A stretch of 63,040 nt of DNA, the filler included, from Octopus bimaculoides (Eukaryota), in assembly GCF_001194135.2 (NCBI RefSeq). It is 3 parts of 3 records of this genome, joined end to end, with 100 filler letters (N's around TTAATTAATTAA, not from the genome) between each part and the next. Parts side by side here need not be neighbours in the genome. Positions count along the whole stretch, not along the records: positions 1 to 26,987 come from NC_068985.1; positions 27,088 to 48,833 come from NC_069004.1; positions 48,934 to 63,040 come from NC_068984.1. One strand, given 5' to 3'. Made by a program: the position numbers and the translations under genes. How positions within the stretch are numbered: position 1 is the stretch's first letter; each line of letters starts with the position of its first letter. Shown one piece after another: positions 7,179-49,510 of the stretch. Under the pieces are notes generated by a model. That model saw only the letters and a program-made list of their open reading frames with translations. It ran no database searches and was not told the DNA's origin.

Positions 7179-7224
7179 AACACAACATTTCGGCTGATAT
7201 ACTCTCCAGCCTTGATCAGGTGTC
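7179..7224 (-). ncRNA. Degenerate type I hammerhead (family A; G8C, helix III ATGT)
   Basis: gacac-CTGATCA-a-ggctg-gagagtatat-cagcc-GAA-ATGT-T-gtgtt. Confidence 0.7.
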
Positions 7225-7535
7225 TTGGGGAAATTTCGAAACAGAGTTCTGATTCCTAAGGTAGTTTTCGATGTTGTTATCAATATCATTATTATTATTA
7301 TTATTATTATTATTATTATTATTATTATTATTATTATTATTATTATTATTATTATTATTATTANNNNNNNNNNNNNNNNNNNNNNNNNNNNNNNNNNNNN
7401 NNNNNNCTGAATAATAATAATAGTAATAATAATAATAATAATAATAATAATAATAATAATAATAATAATAATAATAATGATAATAACATTGAAAAATACC
7501 TTAGGAATGAGAACCCAGGTTCGAAATTTCCCCAA

Positions 7536-7581
7536 GACACCTGATGCAGGCTGAAGGATATATCAACTGAAACGTTGACTT
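7536..7581 (+). ncRNA. Degenerate type I hammerhead (family A; A9C, damaged helices)
   Basis: gacac-CTGATGC-a-ggctg-aaggatatat-caact-GAA-ACGT-T-gactt. Confidence 0.65.
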
Positions 7582-7683
7582 AACAACAAACAAGATGAGG
7601 ACAAATATCCGTTAATTGTAAATAATGTAAATAATAAAACATAATTCCTCATTTCTTAAATATAGAACTGTAAAATATATGTA

Positions 7684-8091
7684 TGTATGTATTTATGTAT
7701 GTATTTATGTATGTATGTATTTATGTATGTATGTATGTATTTATGTATGTATTTATGTATGTACATATGCATGCATGTATGTATGCATATTTGCAGATTT
7801 GTATGTTCTGTTTTATGTATGCATTTTCGTGCATATACTTGCATATCTAGACATGCTCATATATCCTTAAATCATCAACTTTTGGAAAGTCTTACAGAGT
7901 TTTACAGTTGCATGGATGGATTGGATCTGCAGTCTTCGAATTAGCTTTCTCCTTTCTGGTTTTGAGAAGCTTAATTTCTCAAGATTGGTATTTAGTCACT
8001 GTGCTACATATCCCAGTGCCCCAATAATTTACTGGTATAAACCTGAACTTATAATCTGGATAGAGTAACAGCAGATTTCTCAATAGTTCAG
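7684..8091 (-). mobile_element. 5'-truncated R4-like non-LTR retrotransposon (end of restriction-like endonuclease + (CATA)n-rich 3' UTR)
   Basis: Homologous to 40708-40930; stop codon at 7867-7869; TATG repeats on both sides. Confidence 0.75.
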
Positions 8092-8094
8092 TAT

Positions 8095-9320
8095 GTATGG
8101 CCAAGAAACAAGTAATATAAAAAAAAACTCACCATTTTGATTTAGTCTGCTTCAAAGTATTCGCCTTGGCAGTCTACACTCTTCTGCCAGCATTCTTATC
8201 ACTGCTGGAAACATTTTTGGTAATCACTTTTTGGGATGCTTTAGATCTGTGCCAACGAATTTTGCTTAATGTCCTCTGTTGACTCAAATTTTCTCTCTTT
8301 GAGAGGTTTTATGAGTTTTGGGAATGGCCAAAAGTCACATGGAGCCAAGACTGGGGAGTAGCAAGCCTGATGCACAACTGGTGTGTTTTGCTTGGACGGC
8401 AGGGGCAGAAAGAATGGGTGCGTTGTTAGTTCATTTCTACCCACAGCTTCACAAAGGCAATGACGAACCCCCAGGTAGTATTCCTTGTTAATGTTTTGAC
8501 CTTGTGGTGCATCTTCATGGTGCACAATACCTTTGTTGTCGAAAAGAAGAGGTCATCATCAGTTCAGTATTGCTGCTCACCTGTTTTGCTTTCTTTGGTC
8601 ACTGTTGAGGATGGATGCTTCCGTTGGGCTGGTTGCAGGTTCGTTTCAGAGTCATAGCCGTACGTCATGTCTCATCGCCAGTGATGATAGAGTTCGTGAA
8701 GCTTTGATTTTGGCTAGCACACTCCAGCATGTCCTTTCTGCTGGTCAGACAGCTACTTTGGTATGAATTTGGCCGAGACCCTCCTCATGCACAAACCTTC
8801 TGTTATAATTGACTAAACTGACCCATGGCTGATTCCAACTTAGGCAACAATCTCATTAATAGTCACACGACGGTCTTCATAGACTATTCCTGGAACCTTT
8901 ACAATCATTTCGTTATTTCTGCTCGTTGATGGTTCACTGTCCACTGAGATACAGCTTTCTTTGAACCAGTTGTAACCACTTCTTCATTTGTGTATTTCCC
9001 ATAACATCATCTCTAAAGGCCTTTTGAATCTTCTCGATAGTCTGGGCTTGCGTATCACCAAGCTTTTGGCAGAATCTGATACAGTTTCTTTGCTCAATGT
9101 TCTCGGTCATCTTGAGTCAGAAACAAAAATCACACAGCACTCTTTTCACGTCTGTATTCAACGAATCACTGCGAGCGAATGGCACAACCTACAGACACGA
9201 ATATTTTTGCGCATGCTCAGGAAGGACGCGGCCACCAAATACCCAAGCGGATTTTTCTCACGTATTATTATTTTGTGCAACAAAATTCAAGGTCGAATAG
9301 TTTTTGGTTACACTTCGTAT
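8095..9320 (-). mobile_element. Near full-length degraded mariner element
   Basis: ORF 8241-8525 HHEDAPQGQNINKEYY...YSPVLAPCDFWPFPKL matches the mariner catalytic domain; N-terminal remnants upstream. Confidence 0.9.
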
Positions 9321-46285: not shown

Positions 46286-46460
46286 GACATGACGAAGAGC
46301 GCGATGCGATTGCAATAGATATCTTATTGCTTGAACGATATTTTGACAGCAACGAAGCGAATTCAAAATTTACACATCATTCAATGTGGTTAGCCAGAAA
46401 CTGGATTAGACTAGAGAGCTTGAACGGTATGCCTGGATCTAATATATATAGTTGCCATTA

Positions 46461-46519
46461 ATAGCCGACGAGAATGCCTCATGGCTCTTCGCTCCGGCAT
46501 TCAAAACTCCGAGTACTAT
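46461..46519 (+). ncRNA. Variant hammerhead (U4C core; G12A) in a pLTR fragment (family F)
   Basis: atag-CCGACGA-gaatgcc-(17 nt)-ggcattc-AAA-ACTCCGAGT-A-ctat. Confidence 0.65.
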
Positions 46520-47583
46520 AATGACAACCTTTTACGGTTTGTTCTAGTTTATAACATATATAAATAATCCTTCATTTTTCTAATATTGAGGTCTCATTCT
46601 TTTGTTGTTACTTTTTATATTATATATATATATATATATATATATATNNNNNNNNNNNNNNNNNNNNNNNNNNNNNNNNNNNNNNNNNNNNNNNNNNNNN
46701 NNNNNNNNNNNNNNNNNNNNNNNNNNNNNNNNNNNNNNNNNNNNNNNNNNNNNNNNNNNNNNNNNNNNNNNNNNNNNNNNNNNNNNNNNNNNNNNNNNNN
46801 NNNNNNNNNNNNNNNNNNNNNNNNNNNNNNNNNNNNNNNNNNNNNNNNNNNNNNNNNNNNNNNNNNNNNNNNNNNNNNNNNNNNNNNNNNNNNNNNNNNN
46901 NNNNNNNNNNNNNNNNNNNNNNNNNNNNNNNNNNNNNNNNNNNNNNNNNNNNNNNNNNNNNNNNNNNNNNNNNNNNNNNNNNNNNNNNNNNNNNNNNNNN
47001 NNNNNNNNNNNNNNNNNNNNNNNNNNNNNNNNNNNNNNNNNNNNNNNNNNNNNNNNNNNNNNNNNNNNTATATATATATATATATATATATATATATATA
47101 TATATATGCAACCTCATCCTCATCTACACATATATACTTACATGCATCACGTAACATAACACAAGTATATAGACATGTAGTTATGCGTATAAATATGCGT
47201 ATGTATATAGACATACATTTATACTCCCGCATACACACATACACCCGCACATATACAAATATATGCATATCCATATAAGTAAAGGGAGGGTGTGTAAATG
47301 GAAATCGCACATATGCACTGGACAGTCTTACACACTTATGCATACATATACACACACAAATATATACACACACACTTACACACATATACATACGCACACA
47401 CATATACATACGCACACACATACACACACGCTTACATACATATTCATACATATACACACACATTTACATACATATACATACATACACATATACGTACACA
47501 CGCACACCTATAAAAAGGAAAAATATATAAAAATATATATATAAAACAGATACAAAAATCAAAATTTTAAATTAATGGGAGTT

Positions 47584-48728
47584 AAAACGTATGGAAAGGT
47601 TTGTGCAGGAACATAGTAGAAATGTGGACTCTAGCCGTGGTCTTGGTAGCAGGGAACCGCAACCGATATTTTGTGACGTGGGAACATAATCCAAAGAGTT
47701 CAATTCTTGAATTTAAATATGTAGCGGACTCTAAGGAACTTTTCCAGATGAGCCATCTTTCCATATTACAAAGATCGCACTTGCCACTACCGTTAGTATA
47801 AGGGTTACACTTGGATAAGATCTTCCAGCAAATATTATAGTTGACACCTTATTCTTTTAACAACCATATATAACTGGATAATTTAGTAGTCTTTCGTTAT
47901 TCCAGTGTCTGAAGGTTAAGGTGTGATTGTTGAATCTTGCTTTAAAATTTCCCTCTGTGAGACGCACATGTCTCTTGGATGAAACTGTATTATTAGCGTT
48001 GGAGGAATTTACAGTAGCTTCATAAATAATGGCCTCCATTTAGTGGGCACAGGTCTTTATTCCTGTAGGAACAACCGTCTTCTTGGTGTTGTGTTGTATT
48101 GTGCGTGATTATGCTTTTAAAATTTAGGGTGAAACTAAAACTAATTTTTAACTTGTGCCTATTAAAGAGTTTTCTATATTTATGATGTATTGGAAAATGT
48201 CTGTCTATAAGTGACAAGAAATATTTACCTATATTAAAGATCATTTCGGGTGAGTAAGGGGGCGTGAACCAGATAATTTTCCTGTGTCTGTTTCCTTTTC
48301 TTTATTTCTAATCTAATAGTAGGGGTGTAACCCATTTCCTCTTTAAGTCCACTAGCTTTGAGGGCATTGTTATATAGGGGAAAACATTATTAAATATGTC
48401 TATATTGGAGGAGGGCCTAGAAATACTCCTTCTTAACTAAATTCTTAAACACTATGTGGAGGTGGCAGGAACCTACATTAATATAGCTAAGTCTATCTCT
48501 GGGCTTTCTATAGTGTTTGTAAATATTTGCTTGCAAATCTAGAGATACGTTAAGGAAATTGACAACCGTCAGGTTGGTATCTATCGTTATCTTAAAAATG
48601 AATGTTTTCATACGTTGGATAATATCCTTCCTTAAACGATCTTGCGCTGGTCCATTGGTATTCTTAGTTAATGCTAGAGCATTATTATAATTTCAACAAA
48701 TATTGAGGTCTCATTCTTTTGTTGTTAT
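47584..48728 (-). mobile_element. 5'-truncated Penelope-like element (Naiad-like RT thumb + GIY-YIG), frameshifted
   Basis: KITIDTNLTVVNFLNVSLDL; RKIIWFTPPYS; IGKYFLSLIDRHFP; LTEGNFKARFNNH; KCDLCNMER; LNSRIELFGLCSH. Confidence 0.9.
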
Positions 48729-48936
48729 ATGTATCATTATTATTATTATTATTATTATTATTATTATTATTATTATTATTATTATTGTGATCATTATTAT
48801 TATTATTTCATATATATATATATATATATATATNNNNNNNNNNNNNNNNNNNNNNNNNNNNNNNNNNNNNNNNNNNNTTAATTAATTAANNNNNNNNNNN
48901 NNNNNNNNNNNNNNNNNNNNNNNNNNNNNNNNNATA

Positions 48937-49510
48937 TATCAAGTAGTCAGCGTGAAAAAAAAACCACGCTGACTACTTGATAAATTCTTATAAAGATTTT
49001 ATCCTATATTATATTATAAATAATTAGAATATATTCAGTATAAGCACGTGTTACCGAAATGCAACTAGAAAAATTCTAACCTCTTTCACGGATATATAAT
49101 GATAAACAGAAGTCATCATGCTATGTTGGGTACATCGTGGTATGTTGATTTTTGTTTATTTTTTATGTGTCTCGATCATACGTGTACTGATGAACAAAAG
49201 ATGCAGCTTACTTCACAGTTTTGCTGTATTAATTGAGAAACCAGTGGTTTGCCGTTAAGTTAAATGTTTTTAGGAGATTAATTTTTGAAAGTTGCATTTC
49301 CCTCGCTTACGGTAAATATGTTGCTTATTTTTTGGTAGTTTTTGACTTATTTAGTCCCTCTAAGCGTGAGGCATTACTATATAGTTAATGCCCTTATATA
49401 AACTATATATATTTATGGGAAAAAAACGATGAGTTATTTTCCTTATGGGTTTTTTTTTCACGCTGACTACTTGATAAATTCTTATAAAGATTTTATCCTA
49501 CATTATATTA
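48937..49510 (+). mobile_element. Non-coding hammerhead-bearing element with a 42-bp terminal direct repeat and an inverted cap (family G)
   Basis: Direct repeat at 48965-49006 and 49459-49500; 18-bp perfect inverted repeat at 48937-48954 and 48965-48982. Confidence 0.7.
49180..49255 (+). ncRNA. Type I hammerhead (family G)
   Basis: acg(t)gta-CTGATGA-a-caa..atgcagc...gctgtat..ttg-a-GAA-ACCAGTGGT-T-tgccgt. Confidence 0.7.

What the first reader, a model, noticed from the sequence alone, without database searches (positions are those of the whole stretch)
7179..49255. Twelve hammerhead motifs from about eight families in 63 kb, all with self-complementary helix III
Seen at 7179, 7536, 10200, 16345, 26585, 32810, 33224, 33861, 34211, 44066 (half), 46461 and 49180. 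Helix III sequences are ACGU (or its CpG-decayed forms), AGAACU, ACAUAUGU, ACGAUCGU, ACGGCUGU, ACUCCGAGU and ACCAGUGGU. They differ in sequence yet are all (near-)palindromic. Established: PLE pseudo-LTRs carry minimal type I hammerheads with palindromic helix III that cleave as dimers. Inference: this genome may hold an exceptionally large and diverse ribozyme repertoire. If the window is transcribed as host introns, some motifs could cut pre-mRNA.
Basis: partly seen in the sequence, partly recalled or inferred. Interest (0 to 1): 0.8.

Follow-up and report, generated by a model that had tools for sequence, protein, structure and literature searches.

The report
Penelope hammerheads, one on a SINE
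This stretch of animal DNA carries eleven whole and one half hammerhead (self-cutting RNA) motifs of the kind already known from Penelope-like jumping genes, several of them decayed, and one very abundant family is likely a short tRNA-headed passenger element that borrows those genes' copying machinery.

Summary
Eleven complete type I hammerhead motifs and one half lie at the stated places, from 10 insertions and 8-9 families. A search blind to helix III gave 6 intact-core hits against 0.07 per shuffle. Seven of 11 keep all 11 core bases. 'All self-complementary' is overstated: 8 of 11 give a stable self-duplex. The class is known: palindromic helix III, the extra base after A9, thousands of copies per genome, and the 8-10-nt helix III of Hydra-clade elements, once letter for letter, are in print. 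Penelope remnants lie beside two motifs. Pre-mRNA cutting has no support: no host exon was found, the one locus tested had almost no RNA on its flanks, read ends did not pile up at the cut site, and no intact same-family pair shares a strand. The new part is family A: a tRNA-like head, (AAT)n, a hammerhead whose family majority is intact, and Penelope-type insertion marks (inverted tail-less copy, ~32-nt tail, 12/15-bp target duplications). It is likely a SINE riding Penelope machinery; I did not find this in the papers searched, and repeat databases were not available.

The parts
7103..7114 (+). Left target-site duplication (12 bp) of family A head-to-head insertion; right copy 7672-7683
7179..7224 (-). 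Family A minimal hammerhead, decayed (G8C, helix III AUGU), in the inverted copy that lacks the tail
7536..7581 (+). Family A minimal hammerhead, decayed (A9C, weakened helix II, broken stem I), in the direct copy with tail; preceded by (AAT)n and the same head/(AAT)n junction letters as at 43984, next to an N gap
7672..7683 (+). Right target-site duplication of the 7103 insertion
10200..10236 (-). Minimal hammerhead, intact core, G10.1-C11.1, helix III ACGU, stem I 5 bp
16345..16384 (-). Hammerhead, intact core, 6-bp helix II, helix III AGAACU (not a palindrome); foldback of its 5' flank upstream
26585..26667 (+). Hammerhead, intact core, 58-nt helix II region (-25.6 kcal/mol), G.A at its base, helix III ACAUAUGU
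31759..32040 (+). Broken GIY-YIG endonuclease remnant of a PLE (clade probably Neptune, inferred from recalled motifs), about 770 bp upstream of the 32814 motif on the same strand
   Evidence: Pfam GIY-YIG E 0.0063, below cut-off; Atlas 0.93, eukaryotic GIY-YIG clusters
32810..32845 (+). Minimal hammerhead, decayed (A6G, helix III AUGU), 3' of the endonuclease remnant
33223..33310 (-). Hammerhead, intact core, 57-nt helix II region, U.U at its base as in Hydra-clade motifs, helix III ACGAUCGU
33861..33936 (-). Family B hammerhead, intact core, 49-nt helix II region, helix III ACGGCUGU; left arm of a 193-bp head-to-head pair (92% alike)
34211..34286 (+). Family B hammerhead, right arm of the pair
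43857..43871 (+). Left target-site duplication (15 bp) of the family A insertion; right copy 44182-44196
43867..43908 (-). Inverted, 5'-truncated copy of the family A 3' end, lacking the tail
43911..43983 (+). tRNA-like head with A box and B box; 5' boundary of family A
   Evidence: best Rfam hit tRNA, 13.8 bits, E 1.2, below gathering score 29; ARAGORN finds no tRNA gene
43986..44020 (+). (AAT)n linker between head and hammerhead region
44066..44102 (+). Family A half hammerhead: 13-nt deletion removes the 5' core; family majority has the intact core and ACGU
44150..44181 (+). About 32-nt 3' tail; reads and contigs of other copies end at 44149-44150 or at 44181
44182..44196 (+). Right target-site duplication of the 43857 insertion
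46461..46519 (+). Hammerhead, decayed (U4C, G12A), 7-bp helix II, helix III ACUCCGAGU, the same letters as in two published Hydra elements
46583..46610 (+). 28-nt stretch repeated exactly at 48700-48727, beside the truncation point of the Hydra remnant (tail or long duplication)
47590..48692 (-). Broken Hydra-clade PLE remnant: RT thumb, CxCX5C-type linker, endonuclease with CxxC and CxH
   Evidence: tblastn E down to 7e-46
49184..49252 (+). Hammerhead, intact core, 43-nt helix II region, A.A at its base, helix III ACCAGUGGU (published Hydra type, 4 bp plus 1 nt)

Best explanation
The twelve sites are hammerhead-type motifs, likely left as 5'-truncated 3' ends by about ten separate insertions of several Penelope-like retroelement families, and the commonest family is likely a tRNA-headed non-coding passenger that those elements' enzymes copy. 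Shown: the motifs, their decay, two PLE protein remnants, the head-to-head pairs, the tail and target duplications, and the intact majority core of family A. Inferred from published work on related motifs: helix III is too short to close within one molecule, so two copies of the same family pair through the palindrome and swap stem I partners, cutting after the U-H site; this would matter in the tandem or protein-bound RNA of the parent element, not in a lone genomic copy. Inferred for family A: RNA polymerase III starts at the tRNA-like head, the transcript carries a PLE-type 3' end, and a PLE protein nicks AT-rich DNA and starts reverse transcription at one of two internal sites, which leaves a tailed direct copy and a tail-less inverted copy between short target duplications. 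In this window the motifs are predicted to be mostly silent.
For: Shuffle tests. Monomer helix III hairpins are impossible (4 motifs) or unstable (+0.4 to +5.6 kcal/mol, 7 motifs), while 8 of 11 self-duplexes are stable. Features match the published PLE consensus: extra base after A9, palindromic helix III, opposite-strand pairs 100-700 bp apart, mostly single copies. Hydra motifs in print have 8-10-nt helix III, among them ACTCCGAGT, and U.U at the base of helix II. GIY-YIG remnant upstream of 32814; Hydra remnant sharing a 28-nt end with the 46465 piece. Family A: target duplications of 12 and 15 bp; two 3' end points about 32 nt apart in 4 of 4 runs laid, as described for the PLE tail; loose ends at 44072 supply the missing CUGAUGA core in 4 of 4 runs; G at 44095, giving ACGU, in 2334 of 3338 and 1781 of 2618 RNA reads and about 78% of summed contig depth in both contig sets; 5' boundary at 43911 (705 and 468 loose-ended reads); similar summed depth over head and hammerhead; one contig of another copy runs from the B box across (AAT)n to the hammerhead; opposite-strand joints at the head start in other copies (all).
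Against: No cleavage was tested. No many-copy alignment, so no covariation within families. Only 2 of 10 insertions lie beside PLE coding remnants, and the Hydra remnant itself ends without a hammerhead. The tRNA match is weak (13.8 bits, E 1.2). Family A RNA came equally from both strands and 82% of laid reads ran on into unlike flanks, so no free polymerase III transcript was seen; no place had many molecule ends. The tool skipped 43979-44027 for reads, so the head-to-hammerhead link rests on few contigs and on depth. The partner PLE of family A was not found.
Confidence: 0.8

Rival explanations
1. Family A is not one element: a tRNA SINE with an (AAT)n tail was copied by a LINE, and PLE 3' ends later inserted into those microsatellite tails many times over.
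For: PLEs prefer microsatellites, and the anole enzyme cuts at ATT. The full head is seen in only 1 of the 2 insertions here; the other has an N gap at that place.
Against: One 15-bp duplication brackets inverted tail, head, (AAT)n and hammerhead together. The head/(AAT)n junction is the same at 7407 and 43984. Inverted hammerhead-side copies join the head start in other copies, and summed depths of head and hammerhead are alike.
Confidence: 0.2
2. Some motifs have been kept as working ribozymes that cut host pre-mRNA.
For: 7 of 11 cores are intact; the long helix III types are only marginally unstable as monomers (+0.4 to +2.4 kcal/mol); family A sequence is abundant inside other RNAs.
Against: No host gene domain in 450 of 452 ORFs scanned (short exons could be missed). 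RNA depth 0-0.65 on unique flanks in 2 runs, about 6% of each read. No end pile-up at the cut site. No intact same-family pair on one strand; head-to-head pairs would fold into long hairpins. Published minimal motifs are inactive as monomers and weak as dimers; the anole motif needs the PLE protein and left no cut ends in RNA-seq.
Confidence: 0.07
3. The motifs are chance matches in AT-rich, repeat-rich DNA.
For: With 2 core changes allowed, shuffles give 6.15 hits on average against 18 real; Rfam hammerhead models were not among the hits shown.
Against: 6 against 0.07 intact-core hits; 6 of 7 against 5 of 189 fully paired long helix III; the family A majority is more ribozyme-like than the window copy.
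Confidence: 0.02
4. The motifs are solo monomers of non-LTR retrozymes (tandem hammerhead repeats that spread through circular RNA).
For: Retrozyme monomers are scattered along chromosomes and are proposed to be PLE derivatives.
Against: No tandem unit with two same-strand motifs here; tails, inverted copies and flanking PLE remnants point to direct PLE-type insertion. The two classes overlap by descent.
Confidence: 0.1

Closest known systems
Minimal type I hammerheads (min-HHRs) of Penelope-like elements (Cervera and de la Pena 2014, PMC4209133; main text parts 1-2 of 4 and supplement parts 1-2 of 3 read)
   Same: CUGANGA plus one extra base, G-C at the base of helix II, palindromic helix III with ACGU commonest, 3-5-bp stem I, many families per genome, mostly single, some opposite-strand pairs. 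Fits 7219, 7541, 10231, 16381, 32814, 44066.
   Different: No octopus motif in the alignment rows read; local density here looks higher but is one window.
Hammerheads of Hydra-clade PLEs (Craig et al. 2021, PMC8557442; passages, and supplement files S1-S2 read)
   Same: 8-10-nt helix III with a 1-3-nt centre, ACTCCGAGT in two sea cucumber elements and ACCA-A-TGGT in the octopus element; unpaired U.U at the base of helix II; (TA)n targets; CxCX5C, CxxC and CxH protein motifs.
   Different: Four window families (26588, 33304, 33932/34215, 49187) have helix II regions of 43-58 nt, longer than any Hydra row in file S2, and G.A, A.A or C.A at the base; their parent elements were not found.
Schistosome SINE-like hammerhead elements (SM-alpha, Sj-alpha; seen through passages of the review PMC6765202)
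   Same: Short, non-coding, polymerase III promoter plus type I hammerhead.
   Different: Those are tandem, with a canonical hammerhead and the promoter ending up at the 3' end of the cut unit; family A is dispersed, has a 5' tRNA-like head and a minimal hammerhead, and shows PLE insertion marks.
Non-LTR retrozymes as non-autonomous PLE derivatives (PMC7229834, passages; bioRxiv 10.64898/2026.07.22.740005, parts 1-3 of 5 read)
   Same: Non-coding, type I hammerhead, likely moved by PLE enzymes.
   Different: Defined as tandem repeats; no tRNA head described in the parts read.
Anole Poseidon element PAc (Frangieh et al. 2024, PMC11167929; parts 1-2 of 4 read)
   Same: Two reverse-transcription start sites 3' of the hammerhead define a 30-40-nt tail; AT-rich targets; no RNA-seq ends at the cut site.
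   Different: PAc is autonomous; family A has no coding body.

Membership tests
PLE minimal/type I hammerhead | Core C3-U4-G5-A6-N-G8-A9, G12-A13-A14, A15.1-U16.1, H17 | tested here: met
   7 of 11 complete; 4 of 11 with 1-2 changes; family A majority complete
PLE minimal/type I hammerhead | Helices I and II around the core, type I order | tested here: met
   Stem I 3-6 bp and stable helix II in 10 of 11; 7541 fails
PLE minimal/type I hammerhead | Extra base after A9 and G10.1-C11.1 pair | tested here: inconclusive
   Both in 7219, 10231, 16381, 32814; 46465 has the pair without the extra base; 7541 has G-U; 5 long-helix motifs have an unpaired base, as published Hydra motifs do
PLE minimal/type I hammerhead | Palindromic helix III, unstable as monomer | tested here: met
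   8 of 11 stable self-duplexes; 0 of 11 stable monomer hairpins
PLE minimal/type I hammerhead | Location at 3' end or pLTR of a PLE | tested here: inconclusive
   Coding remnant beside 2 of 10 insertions; inverted-copy anatomy in 4 more (7219/7541, 44066, 33932/34215, 16381)
PLE minimal/type I hammerhead | Covariation within families | tested here: inconclusive
   Only 2-3 copies per family in hand; read tables give majority letters, not linked changes
PLE minimal/type I hammerhead | Self-cleavage as dimer | not testable with these tools
   No end pile-up in 2 RNA runs, which does not test chemistry
Hydra clade PLE (47590-48692) | C-terminal GIY-YIG endonuclease, CxCX5C linker, CxxC and CxH around E and N | tested here: met
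   Motifs read in broken frames; by-eye match to published Hydra alignment rows; tblastn hits of unnamed relatives; no tree built
tRNA-derived SINE (family A) | 5' tRNA-related head with A and B boxes | tested here: met
   Boxes at tRNA spacing; Rfam tRNA positions 8-63 in register but 13.8 bits only
tRNA-derived SINE (family A) | Short, non-coding, dispersed, high copy, target duplications | tested here: met
   About 270 bp; 12- and 15-bp duplications; summed contig depth about 3 million against 26-53 on flanks, which the tool says is no copy number
tRNA-derived SINE (family A) | Free polymerase III transcript | tested here: inconclusive
   Reads on both strands, 82% run into flanks; library type unsuited
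tRNA-derived SINE (family A) | 3' end shared with an autonomous partner | not tested
   No genome held; partner not in the window
Non-LTR retrozyme | Tandem units each with a hammerhead | tested here: not met
   No same-strand tandem pair in the window

The most novel reading that the evidence does not exclude
Family A is a tRNA-derived SINE whose copying partner is a Penelope-like element rather than a LINE: a polymerase III head joined to a PLE 3' end with a minimal hammerhead, present in tens of thousands of copies in at least two related species. It alone would make this one of the most hammerhead-rich genomes known, and it gives thousands of natural insertions for reading out how PLEs make tails and inverted copies.
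Probability: 0.55. Interest if true: 0.6.

Novelty: new variant of a known kind. Interest (0 to 1): 0.36.

Why it matters
The headline (many palindromic hammerheads of many families) repeats what is published for PLE-rich animal genomes. What could matter is family A. SINEs are, from my own knowledge, paired with LINEs; a dispersed tRNA-headed SINE with the PLE tail, inverted copy and hammerhead would add PLEs as SINE carriers, define a ~270-nt minimal substrate for the PLE enzyme, and allow a test of whether a passenger needs the hammerhead (its role in PLEs is open) by asking whether the core is conserved above neighbouring bases over many copies. The long-helix-II Hydra-type motifs with an unpaired 10.1-11.1 position are untested ribozyme variants.

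Tried and rejected
Rfam: no hammerhead among the 150 of 276 rows shown for the window or among all rows for 16320-16400 and 26560-26690; no tRNA hit for 43700-44500; ARAGORN 0 genes. No whole genome was held, so no genome-wide count. Word-indexed protein search with the Hydra fragment against longer proteins found nothing; the full HMMER search did (2690 at E up to 0.001). Pfam does not recognise Hydra proteins well (1 of 7 relatives). 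A family A pattern found 0 matches in metagenome contigs. The 28-nt end and its reverse were not found in the Craig supplement by 12-nt search terms. Extra candidates from relaxed scans (49038-, 44310-, 18891+ and others) were dropped as within shuffle level. A strict A/B-box pattern missed the family A head (one base differs before the B box) while hitting two other SINE heads; the pattern found it with one mismatch, among 7 hits. Cross-family dimers were rejected: helix III cross-duplexes are weak except one pair (-6.7), whose stem I arms do not match. Lunse et al. 2017 (dimer cleavage of PLE variants) is not held; I saw only its title and its citation in PMC6765202, and it may describe some of these variants. 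Searches for a PLE-mobilised tRNA SINE found no description; Repbase and Dfam could not be searched. Earlier scan notes: none by sequence, place or the long word list.

Full report
Setting. The window is animal DNA, 35% GC with 3587 N, full of microsatellites, SINE-like repeats and Tc1/mariner pieces. Pfam on 450 of 452 low-complexity-filtered ORFs of 45 aa or more gave no convincing host gene domain; the interpretable hits were transposase, endonuclease and GIY-YIG pieces below cut-off. The animal is probably an octopus; this is inferred from a by-eye match of the Hydra remnant to the published octopus element and from recalled repeat content. No whole genome was held.

The observation. Each stated coordinate holds a type I hammerhead layout: stem I arm, CUGANGA, helix II, GAAA, short helix III, U-H, stem I arm. 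A descriptor that ignores helix III pairing gave 6 hits with an unchanged core against a mean of 0.07 in 60 block-wise dinucleotide shuffles. Among hits with 3 or more inner pair positions, 6 of 7 real and 5 of 189 shuffled were fully paired. The descriptor was tuned after seeing the motifs, missed 7541 and 10231, and gave 9 other weak hits at shuffle level. A strict minimal descriptor gave 2 hits against none in 200 shuffles.

Corrections. Seven of 11 complete motifs keep all 11 core bases; four are mutated and 44066 has lost 13 nt. Eight of 11 helix III segments form a stable self-duplex (-1.7 to -10.8 kcal/mol); AGAACU and two AUGU do not. None forms a stable monomer hairpin. Two head-to-head pairs reduce the count to 10 insertions, in 8 or 9 families.

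PLE context. A broken GIY-YIG frame at 31759-32040 lies upstream of 32814 on the same strand. A broken RT-thumb/linker/endonuclease at 47590-48692 (minus strand) has the Hydra-clade motifs and many relatives. An exact 28-nt stretch sits both at its truncation point and at the end of the piece holding 46465; I read it as a shared tail, but a long duplication is possible, and the remnant ends without its own hammerhead. The other insertions have no coding neighbour, which is the published rule for these motifs.

What is known. Cervera and de la Pena describe minimal hammerheads with an extra base after A9 and a palindromic helix III, about 2,000 in a schistosome, 4,000 in coelacanth and 9,000 in a frog, in many families, some as opposite-strand pairs, inactive as monomers and weak as dimers. 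Craig et al. list Hydra hammerheads with 8-10-nt helix III, including the very letters of 46465 and the type of 49187, and an unpaired U.U at the base of helix II as in 33304. So the long palindromes are a published Hydra trait. Less usual are the 43-58-nt helix II regions in four families. Strict-descriptor density is 34 per Mb with an interval of 4-122; counting all 11 gives one per 5.4 kb. A very high genome total is plausible but one selected window cannot show it.

Family A. Three motifs (7219, 7541, 44066) are 86-91% alike. At 43857-44196 one 15-bp duplication brackets an inverted tail-less 3' piece, a head with A and B boxes, (AAT)n, the hammerhead region and a tail of about 32 nt. At 7103-7683 a 12-bp duplication brackets an inverted tail-less copy and a tailed direct copy. 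This is the PLE insertion anatomy. The head's best Rfam match is tRNA, in register over D, anticodon and T arms but weak; ARAGORN calls no gene.

Reads. I laid 4 of 24 listed runs on 43560-44640: two raw RNA runs (about 6% of each read) and two contig sets from organisms A and B. Loose ends at 44072 carry the missing CUGAUGA core in all four; G at 44095 restores ACGU in 68-78%. So the family majority is a complete minimal hammerhead and the window copies are decayed. Copies end at 44149-44150 or 44181 and begin at 43911. Summed contig depth is 2.8 million at the head and 3.2 million at the hammerhead against 26-53 on the flanks; the tool warns this is no copy number, but it points to tens of thousands of copies. 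One contig of another copy spans B box to hammerhead, one in organism B joins inverted tail to head, and opposite-strand joints recur at the head start. Against: the (AAT)n stretch was skipped for reads, RNA came equally from both strands, 82% of reads ran into unlike flanks, and no place had many molecule ends.

Mechanism. Inferred: two same-family RNAs pair through helix III and exchange stem I arms, which needs tandem copies, high concentration or the PLE protein; in the anole element cleavage needed the protein and was not required for insertion in vitro. Here no intact same-family pair shares a strand, and head-to-head pairs would fold back on themselves. Unique flanks at the tested locus had RNA depth 0-0.65. 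Cutting of host pre-mRNA at these sites is therefore unlikely, though only one locus and two samples were tested. For family A the likeliest cycle is polymerase III transcription from the head and target-primed reverse transcription by a PLE protein from two internal start sites.

Novelty. Polymerase III elements with hammerheads are known from schistosomes, and tandem retrozymes are proposed PLE passengers. A dispersed, 5' tRNA-headed element with a minimal hammerhead and PLE insertion marks did not turn up in five searches or in passages of two cephalopod repeat papers and the giant squid genome paper. Repbase, Dfam, the Lunse 2017 paper and preprint supplements could not be seen, so it may already be catalogued. 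Verdict: real, mostly known; one family a likely new variant; interest 0.36.

Noticed in passing
window 43911 (table 7): In both RNA runs the loose letters before the family A head read, by eye, as an inverted copy of the head's first ~22 nt (agreement 0.64-0.66). This is either a genomic foldback in many copies or cDNA self-priming at a true RNA 5' end; the second would hint at polymerase III starts.
   Followed up: no
window 7080-7361 (-): One reading frame runs open through the whole family A hammerhead and 3' end in the 7219 copy. In the anole PLE the ORF start overlaps the hammerhead, so this might be a relic of the partner's N-terminus; weak, could be chance.
   Followed up: no
window 25078-25296 (+): Second PLE endonuclease 3' remnant, 77% like 31886-32100, cut off by (TA)n and an N gap before any hammerhead.
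   Followed up: partly
window 44270-44315 (-): Possible further, heavily decayed minimal hammerhead (CAGAAGA core, ACGU); within shuffle level, and organism B has a 25-nt gap at 44314.
   Followed up: partly
window 16382-16455 and 33968-34179: Foldback hairpins at the 5' side of 16381 and between the family B arms, as expected at PLE inversion junctions.
   Followed up: partly
window 41385-41595 and 53055-53269; 59911 (-): Other tRNA-headed SINE-like repeats with A and B boxes (92% alike pair), without a hammerhead found.
   Followed up: no
window 8900-10170, 13320-14150, 45025-45850: Decayed Tc1/mariner transposon pieces (Pfam helix-turn-helix hits below cut-off); the 10231 hammerhead piece abuts one.
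   Followed up: no
window 48940-49022 and 49459-49516: Short inverted repeat and a 58-bp direct repeat (97% alike) bracketing the 49187 motif; unexplained.
   Followed up: no
window 58584-58877 (+): Weak endonuclease/exonuclease/phosphatase hit (E 8e-4), probably a LINE remnant.
   Followed up: no
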